Positions 339-12,579 of a stretch of 18,704 nucleotides of DNA are shown in pieces. A program made the translations under genes and the position numbers. The notes beneath the pieces were generated by a model. That model saw only the letters and a program-made list of their open reading frames with translations. It was not told where the DNA came from and searched no databases. Where the stretch lies: the IMG/VR virus record IMGVR_UViG_3300000059_000086, positions 1 to 18,704 of that record. One strand, written 5' to 3'. Origin of the DNA: a virus (Duplodnaviria; Heunggongvirae; Uroviricota; Caudoviricetes). Numbering within the stretch: the stretch's first letter is position 1; the number at the start of each line of letters is the position of its first letter.

Positions 339-425
339 GGAGAGTAGGGAGCATGGTGCTCAAGCGGTCTTGAAATCCGTCCCGTCGCGCAAGCGATGAT
401 GGTTCGATTCCATTACTCTCCGCCA
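339..425 (+). tRNA. Non-canonical type II tRNA-like gene, probable tRNA-Ser (anticodon UGA)
   Basis: 7-bp acceptor stem GGAGAGT/ACTCTCC, discriminator G plus CCA, T-arm gatgg-TTCGATT-ccatt, long variable arm with tcgc/gcga stem, anticodon loop CTTGAAA; D-arm short and anticodon stem closed by a U-U mismatch, so function is uncertain. Confidence 0.5.
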
Positions 426-853: not shown

Positions 854-929
854 GGCCCTTTAGCTCAGTGGTTAGAGCGGGCGACTCATAATCGCACGGT
901 CACCGGTTCAAGTCCGGTAGGGGCCACCA
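854..929 (+). tRNA. tRNA with CAU anticodon, ileX-like architecture (tRNA-Ile2/lysidine type, or Met)
   Basis: Full 76-nt cloverleaf: acceptor GGCCCTT/AGGGGCC, D-loop AGTGGTTAG, anticodon loop CTCATAA, T-loop TTCAAGT, 3' CCA; closely resembles E. coli ileX as remembered. Confidence 0.85.
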
Positions 930-1383: not shown

Positions 1384-1959
1384 ATGTTAACGGCGAACGA
1401 TAACGCGTATTCAGAAGATGATCTCGTTTTGAGTGACTTTATAGGGCGACGAGAATGCTGGACGCAAAAGCGCGAGGAGCTTTATGCAGCGTTAGTTCGT
1501 AAAGGCGTCAACATCGAAACCGCACAGAACGGCGATATGACAGTGGTAAGTGTTGGACTGCACGGCGTAAGCGTGTCAGCAATCAATCATGAGCCGTACA
1601 TTGCGTTATCCGAGTCGATGGTAAGGTTAGTTAAGTTCCTGAAGTACACAGAAGCGAATAACGTGCTCATCGCCAAAAAGAACATCCCGTTCTCATCGGC
1701 CTTTTACTGGATGATGAAGGGGCTTGATGCCCGGCGAACATCATGGCCTAAAGGGAGCTATATATCGATGCTCCGTGGCAGTGTTGGCAGCAAAGAAAAG
1801 CTCGTCGAATTCCTGCCGGAAGAGGCATTCGATATTGTTGAAGGTTGTGATGTGATGGTTATGCCTCGCCTGGTAATGATGAATGGGGATTTACAGGCGC
1901 AGACAGACTGGTTTGCAACTGGTGTTGATATTATCGCTACTGACTGGGAGGTTTTTTGA
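1384..1959 (+). CDS. Hypothetical protein (191 aa) with a C-terminal DUF2829/Tad2-like segment
   Basis: AAGGAG RBS 7 nt upstream; C-terminal blocks FYWMMKGLDARRTSWPKG and DIIATDWEVF parallel the DUF2829-like C-terminus of the 9601-10263 product. Confidence 0.65.
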   Translation: MLTANDNAYSEDDLVLSDFIGRRECWTQKREELYAALVRKGVNIETAQNGDMTVVSVGLHGVSVSAINHEPYIALSESMVRLVKFLKYTEANNVLIAKKNIPFSSAFYWMMKGLDARRTSWPKGSYISMLRGSVGSKEKLVEFLPEEAFDIVEGCDVMVMPRLVMMNGDLQAQTDWFATGVDIIATDWEVF

Positions 1960-2339: not shown

Positions 2340-2354
2340 TGTTAGTAAGTTAAT

Positions 2355-2367
2355 ATTAATTTTCTAA
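2355..2367 (-). promoter_or_regulatory. Operator-like 13-mer TTAGAAAATTAAT (minus-strand reading) upstream of the lpa-like gene
   Basis: Identical 13-mer at 8194-8206 and close variants at 6797-6809 and 6888-6900; all lie in promoter-proximal intergenic DNA. Confidence 0.4.
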
Positions 2368-2446
2368 TACATCATGTTTTTGACAGTCTTCTCAGTATTA
2401 ACAAGCTGATTATCATCCCCTCGGTCTTTTTCTGTCCGGGGGATAA

Positions 2447-6980: not shown

Positions 6981-7012
6981 TAACTTTAAATAATTGGCAT
7001 TATTTAAAGTTA
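6981..7012. other. rox: rox-type site-specific recombination site: 14-bp perfect inverted repeats around a 4-bp spacer (TAACTTTAAATAAT-TGGC-ATTATTTAAAGTTA)
   Basis: Perfect palindromic arms; equals the reverse complement of the published rox site as remembered; lies about 150 bp upstream of the Cre-family recombinase gene. Confidence 0.85.
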
Positions 7013-7164
7013 GGCTATAATCTCCAGTAAACAGGTAGTATTGACAAGGATGAAAAATCATGCCTCGAATCAAAGGCTTGAATTTTTAAAATTAACTTAT
7101 AACTACCCTGTCAGTTTTCTATTTTTCACGTAGCGTCATCTGTATATAGAGGTTTAATAGTTTC

Positions 7165-8193
7165 ATGGGTGAACTAGTTATCTCCGGCGGTTCTGGCGGT
7201 TTTCTGCGCGATATTGGCACCGAATACCAGGAAGCTGCAAAAAACTTTATGCAGTTCATGAACGACCAGGGAGCTTATGCCCCAAATACACTTCGTGATC
7301 TCCGTCTGGTCTTTCATTCCTGGGCGCGGTGGTGTAATTCGCGCCAGCGCCCCTGGTTCCCGATTACGCCGGAAATGGCCCGCGAGTATCTTCTCCAGTT
7401 GCATGAAGCCGATCTGGCTTCGACCACCATTGATAAGCACTATGCCATGCTTAACATGCTGCTTTCGCAATGCGGCCTACCGCCGCTGTCAGACGATAAA
7501 AGTGTATCTCTGGCCATGCGGCGCATCCGGCGCGAAGCGGCAACGGAAAAAGGCGAGCGTACAGGCCAGGCTATACCGTTGCGGTGGGATGATCTGAAAT
7601 TGCTCGACGTATTGCTGTCCCGTTCCGAGCGGCTGGTGGACCTGCGCAATCGGGCGTTTCTCTTCGTGGCATACAATACCCTGATGCGTATGTCAGAAAT
7701 CTCGCGCATCCGTGTCGGAGATCTGGACCAAACAGGTGACACTGTAACGCTGCATATTTCACACACGAAGACCATCACGACCGCCGCCGGACTTGATAAG
7801 GTGCTTTCTCGTTGCACTACCGCCGTGCTAAACGACTGGCTGGAGGTGTCCGGACTTCGTGAACATCCGGACGCGGTGCTATTCCCGCCAATACACCGCA
7901 GTAATAAAGCCAGAATCACGACAACGCCTCTTACTGCTCCTGCGATGGAGAAAATATTCAGCGATGCCTGGGGATTGCTGAATAAGCGAGATGCCACGCC
8001 GAACAAAGGAAGATACCGGACGTGGACAGGTCATAGTGCGCGTGTTGGTGCGGCAATTGATATGGCTGAGAAACAGGTGTCAATGGTCGAGATCATGCAG
8101 GAAGGCACATGGAAAAAGCCCGAAACACTTATGCGATATTTGCGCCGTAGCGGGGCATCCGTTGGTGCAAATAGTCGCCTGATGGATTCCTGA
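7165..8193 (+). CDS. dre: Cre-family tyrosine recombinase, Dre-like (342 aa)
   Basis: Cre-like blocks along its length: WARWC, RNRAFLFVAYNTLMRMSEISRIRVGDL, HSARVGAAIDMA, and the tyrosine block ETLMRYLR; adjacent rox site. Confidence 0.93.
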   Translation: MGELVISGGSGGFLRDIGTEYQEAAKNFMQFMNDQGAYAPNTLRDLRLVFHSWARWCNSRQRPWFPITPEMAREYLLQLHEADLASTTIDKHYAMLNMLLSQCGLPPLSDDKSVSLAMRRIRREAATEKGERTGQAIPLRWDDLKLLDVLLSRSERLVDLRNRAFLFVAYNTLMRMSEISRIRVGDLDQTGDTVTLHISHTKTITTAAGLDKVLSRCTTAVLNDWLEVSGLREHPDAVLFPPIHRSNKARITTTPLTAPAMEKIFSDAWGLLNKRDATPNKGRYRTWTGHSARVGAAIDMAEKQVSMVEIMQEGTWKKPETLMRYLRRSGASVGANSRLMDS

Positions 8194-8206
8194 ATTAATT
8201 TTCTAA
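8194..8206 (-). promoter_or_regulatory. Operator-like 13-mer TTAGAAAATTAAT directly after the dre stop, upstream of the accessory operon
   Basis: Identical to the 13-mer at 2355-2367. Confidence 0.4.
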
Positions 8207-8235
8207 CAATCTTTTTAGACAGTGCATTTTAATGT

Positions 8236-8267
8236 AAAGTACCCTCGCCTATTGCGGAGGGTACTTT
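8236..8267. other. Perfect 11-bp-stem hairpin (AAAGTACCCTC-gcctattgcg-GAGGGTACTTT) between dre and the first operon gene
   Basis: Perfect inverted repeat; no T-run beyond the stem; the 3' stem arm overlaps the TTG start at 8266, so it could be a dre terminator or a translational/operator element. Confidence 0.45.
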
Positions 8268-8610
8268 GCACAATCGTATTACGGAATCAAAACGCTTCAC
8301 TGTTGACGGTTACACCATAACCTTCACTGCGGGCGTTAAGCGCGACCAGGCGGTCGTGGTGTTCGGTGTTATGACCGGACTTGATGCCGTTCCCGTGTTT
8401 ACCCTCGAAAAAAACTGGCGAAATCTGGAGGAAGCTGAACGCTACGTCCGGAAAGTAACCGTCATTGCTGCTGAAAAACTCCTGGCCCACTATCAGGAAA
8501 ATTATCGCGCTATGACCGAGAAAATTAACCATGTTTTCACTCGCCCCACCAGCGGCTTCATTGCCCCTGATGCGAATGCCGGGCGCTATCCGGCAAGGGG
8601 GCGCAAATGA
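8266..8610 (+). CDS. Hypothetical protein (114 aa if the TTG start is used)
   Basis: ORF begins at TTG inside the hairpin; first in-frame ATG is 35 codons downstream; stop overlaps the next start (ATGA). Confidence 0.45.
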   Translation: MHNRITESKRFTVDGYTITFTAGVKRDQAVVVFGVMTGLDAVPVFTLEKNWRNLEEAERYVRKVTVIAAEKLLAHYQENYRAMTEKINHVFTRPTSGFIAPDANAGRYPARGRK

Positions 8611-9095
8611 AAACTTACTACCCATCCCTGAACTGCTATCCAACCACTAATCCTGAGCTGTCAGGGAAACTTCTGTCCCTCCTGGCTGATAGTCCTGATG
8701 AATGGCATAAGCCTGGTGATATCAACACACAGTTCCCTGAGTACGGGTGTATCCGCACCCGAAATGAGCTGAAGAACCTCATTGCTCACGGTTTTGTCCG
8801 TCACCGTAGCGGGAAAGGCTATCAGTTGGCTATCCCACAAGGAGAGGCAAGAGAACTCTTTGGCTATCGAGAAAGCCAGACGCAAGCGCGGGTGATCGCA
8901 GAAATTATCCGTAATGGCAGCGTCTATGCCCGCAAATTCTGGCTGTCTGGCGGTGGCGATGCATCACAGTTCTTGCGTGCTGTGCGATCGCTGGAGGAAC
9001 AAGGTGTTATCGAGAATACCTGCGTCTCCGTTCCGACCGCTCCGCATATCAAACGCCGGATTTATACATTTACCCGGAGAGCTAAAAAGCAATGA
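8607..9095 (+). CDS. Hypothetical protein (162 aa), possibly tandem winged-helix-like
   Basis: AGGGGG RBS; segments LIAHGFVRHRSGKGYQL and LRAVRSLEEQGVI look like winged-helix recognition regions; weak inference. Confidence 0.55.
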   Translation: MKTYYPSLNCYPTTNPELSGKLLSLLADSPDEWHKPGDINTQFPEYGCIRTRNELKNLIAHGFVRHRSGKGYQLAIPQGEARELFGYRESQTQARVIAEIIRNGSVYARKFWLSGGGDASQFLRAVRSLEEQGVIENTCVSVPTAPHIKRRIYTFTRRAKKQ

Positions 9096-9586
9096 TTAAC
9101 GTGAAAGTGAAACGCCTTCATCCGGCGGCAAAACTCCCCGTTTACGCCACCGCCGGATCGGCGGCGATGGATTTTGTTGCTGTTGAAATAACGCCTGGTA
9201 TCGATAGCAATGGCGCTATTTCCTCAAGCTGGTGGGTGCATACCGGCCTCGCTATGGCGATCCCTCCTGGTTGGTGTCTGAAACTTTATCCTCGTTCCGG
9301 ATTGGGCTGCAAAAAGCATACGCGCCTGGCTAACTGCGTAGGAATTATCGACGCCGATTATCGCGGTGAAATCATGGCAAAACTGATTACAGATCCCGGT
9401 GGTGAAGGTGTTTGCCTCAAGCCTGGAATGGCGGTCATGCAAGGCATTTTTGAGCGTGTTGAACCGGTATCGCTGGTAGAAGTTGATGAACTCGATGAAA
9501 CAGAGCGAGGTGCTGGTGGTTTTGGTAGCACATCGGAAGGCCGCGTTGAAATCAAGCGTACACCGCTTCAGTACGAAAAGTTTTAA
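9092..9586 (+). CDS. dut: dUTPase (trimeric Dut family)
   Basis: All five dUTPase motifs present: AGSAAMDF, PRSGLG, GIIDADYRGEI, and C-terminal RGAGGFGSTS. Confidence 0.9.
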   Translation: MINVKVKRLHPAAKLPVYATAGSAAMDFVAVEITPGIDSNGAISSSWWVHTGLAMAIPPGWCLKLYPRSGLGCKKHTRLANCVGIIDADYRGEIMAKLITDPGGEGVCLKPGMAVMQGIFERVEPVSLVEVDELDETERGAGGFGSTSEGRVEIKRTPLQYEKF

Positions 9587-9600
9587 GTAGAGGAAGGATT

Positions 9601-10263
9601 ATGGTCAGCACTTTTCAGGTGTTCCCCAAATACAAATGCCACAGCATCATTCGGGCATCGAAAATCAAAGATATTGTTATTGTCGGCGAAGATTATGCGC
9701 CCATTTTTGGCAGTATCGAAGTCGTTGAGCCAAAAGGAATGACGCTTCGTGTTGATGGTGTGTTCTTGGAAAAATTCCGCCCGCAAATAGGAGGATATCT
9801 CGTCACTGCTGAAAATGGCTATCTGGTCTATGTGCCAGAGAAAGCATTTGAAAAATGCTATAGCCGGGTTAACGACGCCTTCGAAAATGGGACATTGCTC
9901 AGCATTGAAGGTCACAATGGGGTGACATTCATTACAGCCAGGGACGTAACTATTTCTGCTGGCGGTATCGCTACTCTACAAGAAGAAATCGACCTTGAAG
10001 CAGCCGACTTTTCTGACGCGCTGATGTGGCTGAAGGATGGCAAGAAAGTTGCTCGACGCGGGTGGAACGGCGAAAACCAATTCTGCTGGCTGGTTCCTGA
10101 AGGACAGTACCCGGCACGAATGGAAGCCATTAAGGGATATTTCCCCGGCGACCTCGTTCCGTATGGTGCTTATTTCGCCTTAAAAAATGCACAAGGTGTA
10201 GTTGTTCCGTGGGTGCCTTCAGTTGGCGACCTGCTGGCCTGTGACTGGTTTGTTGTGGAGTGA
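9601..10263 (+). CDS. Two-domain protein (220 aa): unknown N-terminal domain fused to a C-terminal DUF2829/Tad2-like domain
   Basis: AGGAAGG RBS; C-terminal blocks ALMWLKDGKKVARRGWNGEN and PWVPSVGDLLACDWFVV match the remembered DUF2829 signature. Confidence 0.7.
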   Translation: MVSTFQVFPKYKCHSIIRASKIKDIVIVGEDYAPIFGSIEVVEPKGMTLRVDGVFLEKFRPQIGGYLVTAENGYLVYVPEKAFEKCYSRVNDAFENGTLLSIEGHNGVTFITARDVTISAGGIATLQEEIDLEAADFSDALMWLKDGKKVARRGWNGENQFCWLVPEGQYPARMEAIKGYFPGDLVPYGAYFALKNAQGVVVPWVPSVGDLLACDWFVVE

Positions 10264-10269
10264 TTTAAC

Positions 10270-11076
10270 GTGGAAAATACCAAAAACATTCAATATCGCC
10301 TGCGTAACGGCCTGCTGGTGGATGTAAACGATGATATGTCCCTGCCCTTTGCCACCATTGAGCGAACCATCCTTACATACCTGGGCTTAGACGAAGAGTT
10401 AGATAGTGAGAATGGCATTGCTATCTGGCGTGACGGAAAAACGGGAGTCAGACGTTTTATTACGGCAAGAGGCATTCAGTGCACACAGGAAGAATTGTTT
10501 GAACTGGCGCAGTCTTATGGATGCATCGCGTTAGATCCCCTGTATGACCCAGCCATAGCACAACAACTCATTCGAGAGCTGTCGCTTTCGGTCACGCCAA
10601 TAATCTTCCGCCAGGGAACCTTAACCGGCACATGGCGTGTAGAACGCATCTCTAAATATCAGCCATATAATATCCATTTGAACGGCACTATTACTGGTGT
10701 GGATCAACCAGTAGCAGGTGAAAACAAAGACCTGGAACTTGCAGTAATGATGGCCGCTTGTCGCGTGCTTGGCCTGGGCAAGCAGATGTTTATCCATTTC
10801 CCAAACGGCGCGGAAGGCGAAGTAGACCTGATTTCCTGCGACTTTTCCTTAACCTGGATGCTTGATGAATTCCTGGACAAAACAGTATTCCGTGCTGAAG
10901 AACTGGATATGTATGTCACCTCAAGTATTCCTAATGACGTGAAAGTTGAGGCCATCGCTACAGCCAGGGCGAAATGCCGTGCGGCGATTGCAGAACAGGC
11001 CAAAGAAGAACAGTCCGATGAAGTCGCGGCAGATGTGGAGGCAGAGGTAGCGGAGGATGCTGATGCTGACGCCTAA
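10270..11076 (+). CDS. Hypothetical protein (268 aa) with acidic C-terminal tail, coupled to the terminase-like paralogue
   Basis: GTG start with GGAG upstream; tail EVAADVEAEVAEDADADA resembles the acidic tail of PacA; 3' end overlaps the next gene. Confidence 0.6.
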   Translation: MENTKNIQYRLRNGLLVDVNDDMSLPFATIERTILTYLGLDEELDSENGIAIWRDGKTGVRRFITARGIQCTQEELFELAQSYGCIALDPLYDPAIAQQLIRELSLSVTPIIFRQGTLTGTWRVERISKYQPYNIHLNGTITGVDQPVAGENKDLELAVMMAACRVLGLGKQMFIHFPNGAEGEVDLISCDFSLTWMLDEFLDKTVFRAEELDMYVTSSIPNDVKVEAIATARAKCRAAIAEQAKEEQSDEVAADVEAEVAEDADADA

Positions 11077-12163
11077 AAACATCACCGAATTACCAGAGTG
11101 GAGAGAGCTGGTAAGCAAATATAGCCATGACTGGGCATTAGCAGCAGAAGAGTTGATGGGGGTTAAGTTAACCCACCAGCAAAAATTAATTGTTGAAGCG
11201 ATTCAACAAAAAGGTTCAGCAGTCAGCGTTACCACACCGACTGGGATAGGACATAAGTCTGCTCTGGCTATCATTTGTATCCTTTATACGATCCTGATGC
11301 CTGAGTCTAAAACGGTCATGGTCGCTCCAGACTTTGAGCGTAATGGAATGGTAACTCTCTCACTCATGAATATGTATTGGGAGAAAGCTAATACAAAAGC
11401 GCCATTACTGGGAGAGTATTTTCAAATCGACCAAAATGGCCTCAATCATCGTTACCAAAAATCTTGGGGCTGCGAAATTAAACCATATCGCCTAAATTAT
11501 GAGGAAGATGTAGCCGGATATTATGCTGAACATCTTTTGATCATTGTTATGGACGCGGCTCTTGTAAGCTATCGGCTATTCGGGATGTTAAGAGCATCTT
11601 TAGTGAGTGACGATTCACGTATACTTTTAATGTCCGCTCCTCCAGAGGAGGAACATGGACACTTTTACGATTCCCATCATGGTCGTGCAAAAACTGAAGA
11701 AAATCCATGTGGTATTTATACAGCCATCAAGCTGAACGCAGAAGAATCACCTCTGCTTACTCAAGATTATCTTGATGGGATTGCAGAAATGTATGGTGGT
11801 AAAATCGGCGATGATTACCGTCGCATGGTTCTTGGTGAGTTCCCGGGTATTCGGGAGGCTGTTCTTGAATCAGATATGCCGAAAACAATGCGCTTTTCGA
11901 TGCCTGATGGTAGTGAATGGACAATGCCATTACAAGTGATAGCCCGGCATCATGCACAGCACCACGCAAAAAAACATGGCGTTACAACATTAGAGTGGTT
12001 GAAATCGCACACCATTCCACTCTTCACTGCAGATCACAATGCTATCGTTGAGTGGGCAAAAACAATTCCGTGGGAGAATGTCGCTGAATACGCCCACATG
12101 CTAAAACCGCCGAAAGACAGGCAAGAAATTAGCTGGCTGACAGCAGAAAAAATCATTGAGTGA
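11063..12163 (+). CDS. Terminase-large-subunit ATPase-domain paralogue with degenerate Walker motifs and no nuclease domain (about 366 aa)
   Basis: Shares blocks with PacB (AEHLL, HxFY[DE]SHHxRAKxExNP, TAIxLNxEESP, YGG, VLGxFP), but the P-loop is PTGIGHKS, Walker B is IIVMDAA, and the C-terminal ~100 aa are unrelated to the PacB nuclease half; ATG at 11063 has better RBS spacing than 11057. Confidence 0.8.
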   Translation: MLTPKNITELPEWRELVSKYSHDWALAAEELMGVKLTHQQKLIVEAIQQKGSAVSVTTPTGIGHKSALAIICILYTILMPESKTVMVAPDFERNGMVTLSLMNMYWEKANTKAPLLGEYFQIDQNGLNHRYQKSWGCEIKPYRLNYEEDVAGYYAEHLLIIVMDAALVSYRLFGMLRASLVSDDSRILLMSAPPEEEHGHFYDSHHGRAKTEENPCGIYTAIKLNAEESPLLTQDYLDGIAEMYGGKIGDDYRRMVLGEFPGIREAVLESDMPKTMRFSMPDGSEWTMPLQVIARHHAQHHAKKHGVTTLEWLKSHTIPLFTADHNAIVEWAKTIPWENVAEYAHMLKPPKDRQEISWLTAEKIIE

Positions 12164-12170
12164 TAGTAGG

Positions 12171-12200
12171 AAGCCCGCCTGGTTGAGCGGGCTTCTTTTC
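12171..12200 (+). terminator. Rho-independent terminator (AAGCCCGC-ctggttga-GCGGGCTT followed by CTTTTC)
   Basis: 8-bp GC-rich stem and T-run immediately after the operon stop; sits between convergent operons. Confidence 0.7.
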
Positions 12201-12579
12201 AAATATTGGAACCATATAGTTCACGTAGTTTCTCCGCTACTGAAGATACGGGGATTTCACCAGTTGCAGCCCCAACCGCAAGTTCCACCAGCACGGGAGA
12301 ATCATATACCTGTATACCGTTACGGCGTAGAAATAGCAGCGCACTGTTTAGCGCGGTACGCTTATTGGCATCATTGAATATATGCCCTCTCGCAGTAGCC
12401 ACCAGGTAGGTGGCGGAGACTTCGAAAAGGTCGGTGATCTCTTCGTAGGCAACTCTGGCCTGAACTCTCCCGATAATGGCCTCTGCCCTACCCGGATCTG
12501 ACATTCCCGGCAGGCCGCCGTAGCGGTTTATATTCGCATCATGAAGCGCAATAAGTTCTTCCGGTGATATATGCCTCAT
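12199..12579 (-). CDS. doc: Doc toxin (Fic/Doc family kinase) of the phd-doc addiction module
   Basis: Doc signature [11 protein letters not shown]; near-identical in character to P1 Doc; start overlaps the phd stop (TAATG). Confidence 0.93.

What the first reader, a model, noticed from the sequence alone, without database searches (positions are those of the whole stretch)
8194..12200. Six-gene operon downstream of dre occupies the slot where P1 carries ref/mat/res/mod and is preceded by an operator-like site
The genes from 8266 to 12163 are tightly coupled (ATGA/TAATG overlaps), start right after an operator-like 13-mer and a perfect hairpin, and end at a strong terminator. The content (dUTPase, Tad2-like fusion, pseudo-terminase pair, two unknowns) looks like an early counter-defence or host-takeover cassette rather than the restriction-modification cargo P1 has at this position. 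That makes it the best candidate for an undescribed functional module in the window.
Basis: partly seen in the sequence, partly recalled or inferred. Interest (0 to 1): 0.65.

Follow-up and report, generated by a model that had tools for sequence, protein, structure and literature searches.

The report
Repressor-controlled early operon, D6-like phage-plasmid
The six-gene operon next to the Dre recombinase is real, but it is mostly a conserved backbone block of the D6 phage-plasmid family into which a known anti-Thoeris (Tad2) gene and a catalytically dead copy of the terminase ATPase have been slotted, so it is not a new kind of system.

Summary
The window is a D6-like phage-plasmid (98% identical to E. 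marmotae pRHBSTW-00605_3; about 80% to phage D6). Six same-strand ORFs (8266-12163) have gaps of at most 14 nt or overlap, and all show dN/dS below 1. They are preceded by a repeated operator-type site and a -23.5 kcal/mol hairpin, and end at an intrinsic terminator.

Four genes are syntenic backbone: p1, p2, dUTPase and IsaA follow pacB-c1-dre even in relatives whose Dre is only 45-56% identical. p1 is probably the counterpart of P1 c8. Only two genes are variable inserts:
- A Tad2-family sponge fused to an unknown N-terminal region. Its closest solved relative is ModTad2, the His-ADPR/type II Thoeris sponge.
- A PacB paralogue with degenerate Walker motifs and no nuclease domain.

IsaA is not PacA-like, so there is no "pseudo-terminase pair". 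D6 orf117-113 (2004/2018 records) already annotate five of the genes. A 2025 preprint already reports Tad2 in 93% of D6-like elements.

Points that appear new:
- A D6-type C1 operator consensus.
- A hairpin occluding the ribosome-binding site of the c8-like gene, recurring across diverged lineages.
- The IsaA/dead-PacB couple.

Interest is moderate to low.

The parts
8194..8211 (+). Candidate C1 operator of the D6 type (ATTAATTTTCTAACAATC; core TTTTCTAACA at 8199-8208), starting directly after the dre stop codon (8191-8193).
   Evidence: The 10-mer occurs 4 times in the window against 0.07 expected, and the other copies sit upstream of lpa and c1. The D6 genome has 16 copies against 1.9 expected, 13 of them intergenic. 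The core is invariant in 7 aligned relatives. Binding by C1 is inferred, not shown.
8212..8240 (+). Conserved TTTTTAGA ... TAAAGT stretch, a possible weak sigma-70 promoter (-35-like TTTTTA, 17 nt spacer, -10-like TAAAGT).
   Evidence: Both motifs and their spacing are invariant, while the 12 nt between them vary. The consensus scan found no strong promoter here. This is a low-confidence inference.
8233..8270 (+). RNA hairpin that pairs the Shine-Dalgarno (8256-8261) and the TTG start codon (8266-8268) of the first gene.
   Evidence: Energy is -23.5 kcal/mol with z = -7.3. It is conserved in all D6-like loci, with G-U and compensated variants. Start-occluding hairpins with unrelated sequences occur in deep relatives, with z of -2.4 to -4.5 in 5 of 6. 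It lacks a U-tract, so it is not a canonical terminator.
8266..8610 (+). p1, 114 aa with a TTG start; equals D6 orf117. Probable counterpart of P1 c8.
   Evidence: phrog_1968 at E = 4e-44. Homologues with ATG starts align from residue 1. It is always the first gene after the recombinase. hhalign against P1 C8 gives probability 84-89%, E = 2e-6 to 8e-6. dN/dS is about 0.2.
8607..9095 (+). p2, 162 aa, function unknown; equals D6 orf116.
   Evidence: phrog_6669 at E = 2e-86. There is no Pfam, NCBIfam or PDB hit. Homologues of 23-30% identity sit at the same position in deep relatives. dN/dS is 0.06.
9092..9586 (+). Trimeric-type dUTPase (dut); equals D6 orf115.
   Evidence: PF00692 at E = 7e-13. 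NCBIfam equivalog NF001862 scores 116.6 bits against a cutoff of 103. Motifs AGSAAMD, PRSG, GIIDADYRGE and RGAGGFGST are read directly from the translation of the sequence.
9601..10263 (+). p4, 220 aa: an unknown N-terminal region (about aa 1-130) fused to a Tad2/DUF2829 sponge domain (aa 132-220).
   Evidence: PF11195 at 80.3 bits against a cutoff of 25. It aligns end to end with solved ModTad2 9eib/8v3e (E = 6e-20), and more weakly with HgmTad2/AcrIIA7, SPO1 Tad2 and SptTad2. The gcADPR-contact residues W, N, W, S and D are conserved. D6 lacks about 75 aa of the N-terminal region. The gene is absent between dut and isaA in L049, L050 and all deep relatives.
10270..11076 (+). p5, 268 aa, IsaA homologue; equals D6 orf113.
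   Evidence: phrog_2326 at E = 5e-125. It is 46% identical to P1 IsaA. The family has only 39 representatives among 1.84 billion proteins. The AlphaFold2 model has pLDDT 83 and no informative fold match.
11057..12163 (+). p6, 366-368 aa: a PacB-derived pseudo-ATPase ('PacB-prime') plus an unrelated 105-aa C-terminal domain. Absent from D6 itself.
   Evidence: Residues 5-263 match PacB 8-266 at 34% identity, E = 6e-49, hhalign probability 100%. Walker A GTGKSS becomes GIGHKS, GIGQKT, GIGRPQ or GIGETS. Walker B LILDEAS becomes IIVMDAA, IIVDSA or FIVINSA. No nuclease-domain homology is detectable. It overlaps isaA here and in P1-like MH422554.
12168..12201 (+). Intrinsic terminator that closes the operon and abuts the 3' end of the convergent doc gene.
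   Evidence: Stem GAAGCCCGC/GCGGGCTTC followed by UUUU, -19.8 kcal/mol, z = -4.0.

Best explanation
This is the C1-repressible early operon that lies downstream of the Dre recombinase in the D6 lineage of P1-family phage-plasmids. It is a mosaic of conserved and variable genes.

**Conserved backbone: p1, p2, dut, isaA.**
- p1 is a c8-like small protein whose ribosome-binding site is locked in a hairpin.
- p2 has unknown function.
- The dUTPase keeps dUTP out of replicating phage DNA.
- IsaA has unknown function.

**Two accessory genes have been inserted into this transcript.**
- A Tad2-family sponge, predicted to sequester TIR-derived ADPR-type signals and so blunt Thoeris immunity. Its closest solved relative is the His-ADPR/type II Thoeris sponge ModTad2.
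- A catalytically dead PacB ATPase-domain paralogue, translationally coupled to IsaA.

**Proposed regulation.** In the lysogen, C1 bound at 8194-8211 keeps the operon off. On infection or induction it is transcribed as one unit up to the terminator at 12168-12201.

**What is shown:** gene structure, homologies, motif enrichment, RNA folds and synteny.

**What is inferred:** C1 binding, promoter position, timing of expression, ligand specificity of the sponge, and any role of p1, p2, IsaA and PacB-prime.
For: **Operon anatomy and coding constraint:**

**Operator family sited like P1 C1 operators:**. P1 itself has C1 operators at the equivalent places, Oref after cre-c8 and Ossb before ssb-isaA.

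**Backbone synteny.** The order pacB-c1-dre-p1-(x)-p2-dut-isaA holds in 52 IMG/VR loci and 2 plasmids, including deep relatives.

**Variable presence of the two inserts.**
- The Tad2 gene is absent from L049, L050 and L051-L070.
- PacB-prime is present in 15 of 32 close IMG/VR loci.
- Its C-terminal domain is found in 44 plasmid records at 95% identity or more, read here as D6-like, and in 121 records below 60% identity. The listed examples of the latter are 94-99 kb plasmids at 59.8%, the value seen in P1-like phages.

**The same sub-module sits in the P1-like ssb operon.** SJ46 has ssb-Tad2 fusion-isaA, and MH422554 has ssb-isaA-PacB-prime.

**Tad2 membership:**. ModTad2 biology is from bioRxiv 10.1101/2024.01.03.573942.

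**dUTPase:**

**Dead ATPase motifs:**
Against: - No strong sigma-70 promoter is detectable between the operator and the first gene. Transcription could instead come from the dre promoter.
- The hairpin would block translation of p1 on any transcript that starts upstream of 8233. How and when p1 is made is therefore unexplained.
- The P1 operator consensus is not matched. C1 binding rests only on analogy and motif statistics.
- The Tad2 domain is embedded in a 220-aa fusion, whereas the characterised Tad2 proteins seen here are 88-158 aa. T92 of HgmTad2 is Gly here and L88 is Val.
- The AlphaFold2 model of p4 failed (pLDDT 45), so assembly and pocket geometry are untested.
- Functions of four of the six proteins remain unknown.
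Confidence: 0.6

Rival explanations
1. One reading: the whole six-gene unit is a dedicated counter-defence or host-takeover cassette, carried as exchangeable cargo where P1 carries restriction-modification. All six proteins act against host immunity.
For: - A Tad2 domain is present.
- An operator-type site suggests early expression.
- p4 and p6 evolve fastest, with dN/dS of 0.34-0.44, and exist as alternative alleles.
- P1-family elements are rich in anti-defence genes.
Against: - p1, p2, dut and IsaA are syntenic backbone across deep relatives and are under strong purifying selection.
- Only p4 has any homology to a known anti-defence protein. None of the six hits PADLOC, though that library models defence systems.
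- p1 resembles P1 c8, annotated in the P1 record as 'establishment of lysogeny, putative'.
- D6 has no R-M genes to be 'replaced', and keeps ref and mat elsewhere.
Confidence: 0.15
2. The 5' half is an extension of the immunity/recombinase (immC) region rather than an early lytic operon. p1 (c8-like) and p2 would be lysogeny-establishment or regulatory proteins transcribed by read-through from the dre promoter. The hairpin would act as an attenuator or insulator for dre transcripts, and the operator as a roadblock.
For: - p1 always directly follows the recombinase and is remotely similar to P1 C8.
- The only strong promoter nearby is upstream of dre, at 6994-7021.
- The hairpin occluding the ribosome-binding site is conserved in unalignable relatives.
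- p2 shows very low dN/dS, 0.06.
Against: - The hairpin has no U-tract, so it is a poor terminator.
- The operator motif here is the same as the one before lpa, a gene whose P1 homologue is, from memory (Lehnherr et al. 1992), a C1-controlled early gene.
- The hhalign match to C8 is partial: 42 columns, probability below 90%.
Confidence: 0.15
3. IsaA plus PacB-prime is a packaging-related module. The dead ATPase paralogue would bind PacA, PacB, the portal or pac DNA, and would tune or delay terminase action, or interfere with the packaging of co-resident P1-family rivals.
For: - p6 is unmistakably derived from the PacB ATPase domain, has lost the catalytic motifs, and is still under purifying selection.
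- It overlaps isaA in both D6-like and P1-like contexts, and in every locus inspected it directly follows isaA.
- It is widespread: 166 plasmid records.
Against: - No interaction data exist.
- IsaA is unrelated to PacA.
- P1 isaA is non-essential in a CRISPRi screen (PMC10695390).
- D6, P1 and SJ46 do without PacB-prime.
- The C-terminal domain also occurs free-standing next to replication or recombination genes in other phages.
Confidence: 0.1

Closest known systems
Phage D6 orf117-orf113 (NC_050154/MF356679; orf2, orf3 and dut in AY753669)
   Same: It has the same position directly after dre, and the same order p1-p2-dut-Tad2-IsaA. Protein identity is 71-89%. The operator and hairpin are identical, with the same TTG start.
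   Different: - D6's Tad2 protein lacks about 75 aa of the N-terminal region.
- D6 has no PacB-prime gene and carries pdcA there instead.
- The window also belongs to a sub-lineage with a slightly different operator spelling (AATTTTCTAACA-A against AAATTTCTAACACA).
P1-family ssb-isaA operon under operator Ossb (P1 ssb-isaA-IS1-isaB; SJ46 ssb-Tad2 fusion-isaA; MH422554 ssb-isaA-'terminase large subunit')
   Same: It carries homologous IsaA (46%), Tad2-fusion (87% nucleotide identity) and PacB-prime (48%) genes in the same order. In P1 the operon is downstream of a C1 operator.
   Different: - It sits at a different genomic location, after ssb rather than after cre/dre.
- No p1, p2 or dut is present.
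- In P1 itself, IS1 and the unrelated isaB follow isaA.
Tad2 anti-Thoeris sponges (SPO1 Tad2, HgmTad2/AcrIIA7, ModTad2)
   Same: The DUF2829 domain aligns end to end. The GWNG loop and the C-terminal W..S..D..DW motif that contact gcADPR are conserved. The short beta2-beta5 insert resembles ModTad2.
   Different: - Here it is the C-terminal domain of a 220-aa fusion.
- T92 is Gly and L88 is Val.
- Ligand, oligomeric state and activity are untested.
- Relatives carry an alternative allele (EWKG, shorter insert), which hints at different specificity.
P1 cre-c8-Oref-ref region
   Same: The order is recombinase, then a gene of about 100-114 aa (c8 or p1), a C1 operator, and a stable hairpin immediately before a start codon.
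   Different: - In P1 the operator and hairpin precede ref, after c8. Here they precede the c8-like gene.
- P1 then continues with ref-mat-res-mod, not dut-Tad2-isaA.
PacB, the large terminase (pacase) subunit of P1/D6
   Same: p6 residues 5-263 are homologous to the PacB ATPase domain (34-37% identity, E about 1e-49).
   Different: - The Walker A lysine and the Walker B Asp/Glu are lost, and these positions vary within the family.
- There is no nuclease domain; an unrelated 105-aa C-terminal domain replaces it.
- The gene sits in an early-type operon rather than behind the late pac promoter.

Membership tests
Tad2 / DUF2829 (PF11195) anti-Thoeris sponge | Domain match above the curated threshold | tested here: met
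   80.3 bits against a gathering score of 25, covering aa 136-219 and profile positions 2-73 of 73.
Tad2 / DUF2829 (PF11195) anti-Thoeris sponge | Full-length similarity to experimentally solved Tad2 proteins | tested here: met
   ModTad2 9eib and 8v3e at E = 6e-20 and 7e-20 over the whole chain; HgmTad2 at 4e-10; SPO1 Tad2 at 6e-9.
Tad2 / DUF2829 (PF11195) anti-Thoeris sponge | Conservation of the gcADPR-contact residues defined in HgmTad2 (W21, N22, W87, L88, S90, T92, D93) | tested here: inconclusive
   Five of seven are identical (W155, N156, W, S, D). L88 is Val and T92 is Gly. This comes from the alignment read against the residues listed in PMC10680739.
Tad2 / DUF2829 (PF11195) anti-Thoeris sponge | Tetramer that binds and sequesters the TIR-made signal, and rescues phage from Thoeris | not testable with these tools
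   The AlphaFold2 model of p4 was unusable (pLDDT 45). A biochemical or phage assay is needed.
Trimeric dUTPase (PF00692 / NF001862) | Score above the curated equivalog cutoff, and the conserved motifs | tested here: met
   NF001862 scores 116.6 bits against 103, and TIGR00576 116 against 102.6. Motifs I, II, III and V are visible in the translation. Motif IV is divergent (MAVMQ).
Large terminase subunit (PacB/TerL) | Homology of the N-terminal ATPase domain | tested here: met
   34% identity over 258 aa, E = 6e-49; hhalign probability 100%.
Large terminase subunit (PacB/TerL) | Intact Walker A (GxGKS/T) and Walker B/catalytic Glu (hhhhDE) | tested here: not met
   Walker A is GIGHKS, GIGQKT, GIGRPQ, GIGRAP or GIGETS. 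Walker B is VMDAA, VTEAA, IVDSA, VVNAA or VINSA across the paralogue family, against GTGKSS and LDEAS in PacB.
Large terminase subunit (PacB/TerL) | C-terminal RNase-H-like nuclease domain | tested here: not met
   The protein ends at 366-368 aa. hhalign finds no match of aa 264-368 to PacB 267-502.
P1 C1 repressor operator | Match to the 17-bp consensus ATTGCTCTAATAAATTT | tested here: not met
   There is no match with up to 3 mismatches anywhere in the window. C1 here is a longer, diverged protein (345 aa).
P1 C1 repressor operator | A dispersed family of asymmetric sites placed 5' of c1, lpa and other early genes | tested here: met
   Four sites in the window against 0.07 expected, lying before lpa, before c1 (two sites) and before p1. 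D6 has 16 sites against 1.9 expected, 13 of them intergenic. The shared core is TCTAA(Y)A.
P1 C8 (annotated 'establishment of lysogeny, putative') | Sequence homology | tested here: inconclusive
   BLASTP finds nothing. Profile comparison gives probability 84-89%, E = 2e-6 to 8e-6 over 42-43 columns, and 72% in global mode.
P1 C8 (annotated 'establishment of lysogeny, putative') | Same position and size: the first gene after the Cre-type recombinase, about 100-115 aa | tested here: met
   P1 c8 is 103 aa and starts 51 nt after cre. p1 is 114 aa and starts 72 nt after dre. The same holds in the deep relatives.
IsaA (phrog_2326) | Full-length homology to P1 IsaA | tested here: met
   phrog_2326 at E = 5e-125. 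Identity to P1 IsaA is 46% over 84% of the protein.
Bacterial operon (single transcription unit) | Same strand, no internal gaps that could hold a promoter or terminator, bounded by a regulatory 5' region and a terminator | tested here: met
   Gaps are at most 14 nt, and three junctions overlap. The terminator is at 12168-12201.
Bacterial operon (single transcription unit) | One mRNA observed | not testable with these tools
   Transcript mapping is needed.

The most novel reading that the evidence does not exclude
IsaA and the PacB-derived pseudo-ATPase form a previously unrecognised functional pair of P1/D6 phage-plasmids. The pair would be an early-expressed, catalytically dead terminase look-alike with one of three roles:
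- controlling when the real PacAB pacase may cut pac;
- sabotaging the packaging of co-resident P1-family rivals;
- acting as a decoy for host sensors that recognise the terminase large subunit (Avs-type NLRs).

In addition, the hairpin occluding the ribosome-binding site in front of the c8-like gene may be a conserved translational switch of this phage family.
Probability: 0.15. Interest if true: 0.7.

Novelty: new member of a known kind. Interest (0 to 1): 0.35.

Why it matters
**Practical value.**
- D6-like phage-plasmids are common in E. coli, Shigella and Salmonella of clinical interest.
- Knowing which genes are fixed backbone and which are swappable anti-defence inserts helps to read their host range and persistence.
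- The D6-type operator consensus allows early genes to be predicted genome-wide in this lineage.
- The Tad2 alleles predict which Thoeris types these elements evade: the GWNG/long-insert allele near ModTad2 against the EWKG/short-insert allele.

**Conceptual value.** The only piece that could surprise a specialist is the conserved, catalytically dead terminase paralogue coupled to IsaA. If it regulates packaging or decoys terminase-sensing immunity, that would be new biology. Otherwise the finding is an ordinary, already-annotated early operon.

Tried and rejected
- **P1 C1 operator consensus in the window:** no match with up to 3 mismatches. It was replaced by a lineage-specific motif.
TTTCTAACAATCT with up to 3 mismatches is not enriched, 7 found against 5.5 expected. 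Only the 10-mer core is enriched.
- **P1 late-promoter '-22' box (CAAGTGAC):** absent upstream of p1, by comparison.
- **'IsaA is a PacA-like small terminase':** rejected by BLASTP and hhalign.
- **'P1 isaB is the C-terminal remnant of PacB-prime split by IS1':** rejected, no similarity.
- **'The p6 C-terminal domain is a decayed nuclease domain':** a MAFFT alignment suggested it, but hhalign gives no support.
- **Structure of p4:** AlphaFold2 gave pLDDT 45 and was unusable, so no fold search was run.
- **p1, p2, p5 and p6 against PDB sequences, and all six against Pfam, NCBIfam and PADLOC:** nothing useful beyond dut and Tad2.
- **Rfam on the whole window:** only a tRNA.
- **Literature:** the D6 papers of Sauer & McDermott 2004 and Gilcrease & Casjens 2018 are not held in the library. 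What they say about these ORFs could be read only from the GenBank annotations.
- **Hairpin covariation:** no formal test was made. The D6-like clade has too little variation, and the deep relatives are unalignable.

Full report
**What the window is.**
- The interval 8194-12200 is 98.3% identical over its whole length to plasmid pRHBSTW-00605_3 of Escherichia marmotae, and matches 243 plasmid records, almost all non-mobilisable (the listed records are 87-96 kb). Its first 62% is about 80% identical to phage D6.
- The flanks are lpa (PF25716), pacA, pacB, a c1-type repressor on the minus strand, a 32-bp site identical to D6 rox (6981-7012), a recombinase 94% identical to Dre, and downstream doc/phd and an S24 peptidase (UmuD/HumD-like) gene.
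- The element is therefore a D6-like member of the P1 family of phage-plasmids.

**Checking the observation.**
- Six + strand ORFs run from 8266 to 12163. They have ATGA overlaps at 8607 and 9092, gaps of 14 and 6 nt, and a 14-20 nt overlap at the last junction.
- All six evolve as coding sequence, with dN/dS of 0.06-0.44 against two relatives.
- The interval ends in a stem-loop of -19.8 kcal/mol followed by UUUU.
- I found no TAATG overlap.

**The operator-like site.**
- The site right after the dre stop codon (ATTAATTTTCTAACAATC, 8194-8211) is not a chance match.
- TTTTCTAAYA occurs four times in the window against 0.07 expected. The other three copies lie before lpa (2360) and before c1 (6802, 6886).
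- In the reconstructed D6 genome, TTTCTAAYA occurs 16 times against about 1.9 expected, and 13 of the 16 are intergenic. These include the 5' regions of c1, lpa, ref, hrdC/dmt, icd-ant and orf117 (mapped).
- This is the dispersed, asymmetric pattern of P1 C1 operators. The P1 record annotates Oref, Omat and Ossb in equivalent places.
- The P1 consensus itself is not matched. I therefore read the motif as the operator of the diverged, 345-aa C1 of this lineage. That is an inference from statistics and position, not a demonstration of binding.

**The hairpin.**
- The 'perfect hairpin' is real (8233-8270, -23.5 kcal/mol, z = -7.3), but it does not precede the gene. Its 3' arm contains the Shine-Dalgarno GGAGGG and the TTG start codon of the first ORF.
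- The TTG start is supported three ways:
  - the spacing of the Shine-Dalgarno sequence;
  - the PHROG alignment, which begins at residue 2;
  - homologues with ATG starts that align from residue 1.
- The hairpin, the operator and a TTTTTAGA...TAAAGT stretch are invariant in D6-like relatives, while the 12 nt between the last two vary.
- In deep relatives whose intergenic sequences cannot be aligned, a different hairpin again pairs the start codon or the Shine-Dalgarno sequence of the p1 homologue. z is -2.4 to -4.5 in five of six lineages.
- The hairpin lacks a U-tract and was not called as a terminator.
- I take it to be a translational control or insulating element for the first gene. Where the transcript starts relative to it is unknown, and no strong sigma-70 promoter was found.

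**What the genes are.**

*p1 (114 aa) and p2 (162 aa).*
- Neither has a Pfam, NCBIfam, PADLOC or PDB hit.
- Among 50,697 phage records they occur only in D6.

*p3.* It is a bona fide trimeric-type dUTPase.

*p4 (220 aa).*
- It ends in a Tad2/DUF2829 domain that aligns over its full length with solved Tad2 proteins.
- The best match is ModTad2 (E = 6e-20). [quoted passage not shown]
- Five of the seven gcADPR-contact residues defined for HgmTad2 are identical.
- The N-terminal 130 aa are unique to these fusions and could not be modelled.

*p5.* It is the IsaA homologue, 46% identical to P1 IsaA.
- It models confidently (pLDDT 83), with alpha-beta-beta-beta-alpha repeats and a long acidic C-terminal helix.
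- It has no informative structural neighbour.
- It belongs to a family of only 39 representatives among 1.84 billion proteins.

*p6.* It is a paralogue of the PacB ATPase domain (34% identity, E = 6e-49; hhalign probability 100% for residues 5-263).
- The Walker A lysine and Walker B acidic residues are replaced, and differently in different members.
- The nuclease domain is missing.
- Its last 105 aa form an unrelated domain. That domain is also found free-standing next to a DnaB-like helicase in Cronobacter phage JK004. In Xanthomonas phages it is fused to another protein beside recombinase, exonuclease and SSB genes.
- IsaA shows no relationship to PacA. The 'pseudo-terminase pair' is thus one pseudo-terminase coupled to an unrelated protein.

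- I collected 52 IMG/VR loci with a profile of p1, plus two plasmids.
- The order pacB-c1(-)-recombinase-p1-(one extra ORF in deep relatives)-p2-dut-isaA holds in every locus long enough to show it. That includes elements whose Dre, PacB and C1 are only 45-56%, 73-77% and 27-35% identical to the window's.
- These four genes are therefore conserved backbone of the lineage.
- The Tad2 gene is missing between dut and isaA in L049, L050 and all deep relatives. Elsewhere it exists with or without the N-terminal domain, and with two alternative sponge alleles, GWNG with a long insert or EWKG with a short insert.
- PacB-prime is present in 15 of 32 close IMG/VR loci. Its C-terminal domain is found in 166 plasmid records:
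  - 44 at 95% identity or more, read here as D6-like;
  - 121 below 60% identity, whose listed examples are 94-99 kb plasmids at the 59.8% seen in P1-like phages.
- Phage D6 itself lacks PacB-prime.
- The same Tad2-fusion, isaA and PacB-prime genes occur in P1-like phages behind ssb. In P1 that operon carries the C1 operator Ossb:
  - SJ46 has ssb-Tad2 fusion-isaA;
  - MH422554 has ssb-isaA-PacB-prime, with an 8-nt overlap;
  - P1 has ssb-isaA-IS1-isaB.
- The sub-module therefore moves between two C1-controlled early operons of the family.

**p1 and P1 c8.**
- p1 is always the first gene after the recombinase and has the size of P1 c8 (103 aa, 51 nt after cre).
- BLAST sees nothing. A profile of the p1 family matches C8 with probability 84-89% and E = 2e-6 to 8e-6 over the C-terminal helical half.
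- Together with the synteny, I consider it likely (about 70%) that p1 is the c8 counterpart. The P1 record annotates C8 only as 'establishment of lysogeny, putative'.
- Some deep relatives also have a ref homologue a few kb downstream, as P1 does after c8.
- In P1, ref is likewise preceded by an operator and then a stable hairpin immediately before its ATG.

**Most likely mechanism.**
- In the lysogen, C1 occupies 8194-8211 and keeps the operon silent.
- After infection or induction the operon is transcribed as one unit. It then supplies four things:
  - a c8-like factor whose translation is gated by the hairpin;
  - p2;
  - a dUTPase that protects replicating DNA from uracil;
  - a Tad2 sponge that soaks up TIR-made ADPR-type alarm molecules, plus IsaA with its dead-terminase partner.
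- Shown: gene structures, homologies, motif enrichment, folds and synteny.
- Inferred: C1 binding, timing, promoter, ligand, and every role beyond dut and Tad2.
- Rival readings are scored separately: an all-counter-defence cassette, an immC or lysogeny-establishment extension read through from dre, and a packaging-control module.

**Comparison with what is known, and novelty.**
- Five of the six genes are D6 orf117-113. The first three were already deposited in 2004 as orf2, orf3 and dut.
- A 2025 preprint screening phage-plasmids reports Tad2 in 93% of D6-like and 56% of P1-like elements.
- P1 isaA is non-essential in a CRISPRi screen (PMC10695390). The isaA-IS1-isaB region is a known region of difference among P1-like plasmids (PMC6906374).
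- The finding is therefore a new member of a known kind. Four details are not, to my knowledge, described:
  - the D6-type operator consensus;
  - the conserved hairpin occluding the ribosome-binding site of the c8-like gene;
  - the backbone-versus-insert dissection of the operon;
  - the PacB-derived pseudo-ATPase coupled to IsaA.
- Only the last could be truly surprising if it proved to regulate packaging or to interact with terminase-sensing immunity.

**Verdict.** Interest is 0.35.

Noticed in passing
window 1384-1959 (+): This is a second, much more diverged Tad2-like protein (191 aa; PF11195 at E = 4e-10 for aa 103-190). It lies two genes upstream of lpa and also has an unknown N-terminal extension of about 100 aa. 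The GWNG loop reads SWPKG. The element therefore carries two DUF2829 proteins. PGAP names this one 'MW1434 family type I TA system toxin' in the closest plasmid.
   Followed up: partly
window 2352-2446 (+), upstream of lpa (2447-2839): The same operator spelling (ATTAATTTTCTAATA) is followed by TTTTTGACAGT, paralleling TTTTTAGACAGT before p1. A weaker hairpin (-15.6 kcal/mol, z = -2.0) pairs the lpa Shine-Dalgarno sequence. The order operator, then hairpin, then start codon thus appears before p1, before lpa, and before P1 ref.
   Followed up: partly
window 6981-7012 and 6994-7021: The 32-bp palindrome is identical to the D6 rox site (TAACTTTAAATAAT-TGGC-ATTATTTAAAGTTA). The best sigma-70-like promoter of the region (TTGGCA, 16 nt spacer, TATAAT; 11 of 12 matches), pointing towards dre, overlaps it. 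Dre binding at rox could therefore affect dre transcription.
   Followed up: no
window 339-425 and 854-929 (+): Two tRNA genes are present, tRNA-Ser(UGA) and tRNA-Met(CAU). Only the second reaches the Rfam tRNA threshold. D6 has a Ser/Thr/Asn tRNA set at the corresponding place.
   Followed up: no
alignment A5 (relatives of window 9601-10263): There are two alternative alleles of the Tad2 domain among otherwise similar fusion proteins. One has RRGWNGEN with a 9-aa longer beta2-beta5 insert (window, D6). The other has RREWKGEK with a short insert and a different C-terminal loop (most E. coli and Salmonella relatives). The changes fall in ligand-contact loops, which suggests diversification of specificity.
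   Followed up: partly
L005 (E. coli O45:H2 FWSEC0003 plasmid, NZ_CP031917): In this relative, dre, p2 and dut are each split by frameshifts (two tblastn segments each). The Tad2, IsaA and PacB-prime genes remain intact. The 5' half of the operon seems to be decaying there.
   Followed up: no
L014 3501-3797 (Cronobacter phage JK004 gene_35); L013 1388-2803 (Xanthomonas phage Tenjo): The 105-aa C-terminal domain of PacB-prime is a mobile small domain. It is free-standing (98 aa) two genes downstream of a DnaB-like helicase in JK004. In CP2-like Xanthomonas phages it forms the C-terminus of a 471-aa protein next to recombinase, exonuclease and SSB genes. Its function is unknown.
   Followed up: partly
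L051-L070, L017, L018 (deep relatives), about 300-900 nt after the p1 homologue: Deep relatives carry one extra ORF (about 150 aa) between p1 and p2 that the D6-like clade lacks. Several have a P1 ref homologue 4-5 kb downstream on the same strand. The Acinetobacter plasmid has ISEc9-blaCTX-M-3 inserted shortly (one small ORF) after dut.
   Followed up: no
L004 4570-5532 (P1 isaA): P1 isaA is annotated as 320 aa, but similarity to the IsaA family starts only about 59 codons in (record position 21746 against the annotated start at 21569). The annotated N-terminus may be wrong, or may be a remnant of another gene such as the Tad2 fusion that occupies this place in SJ46.
   Followed up: no
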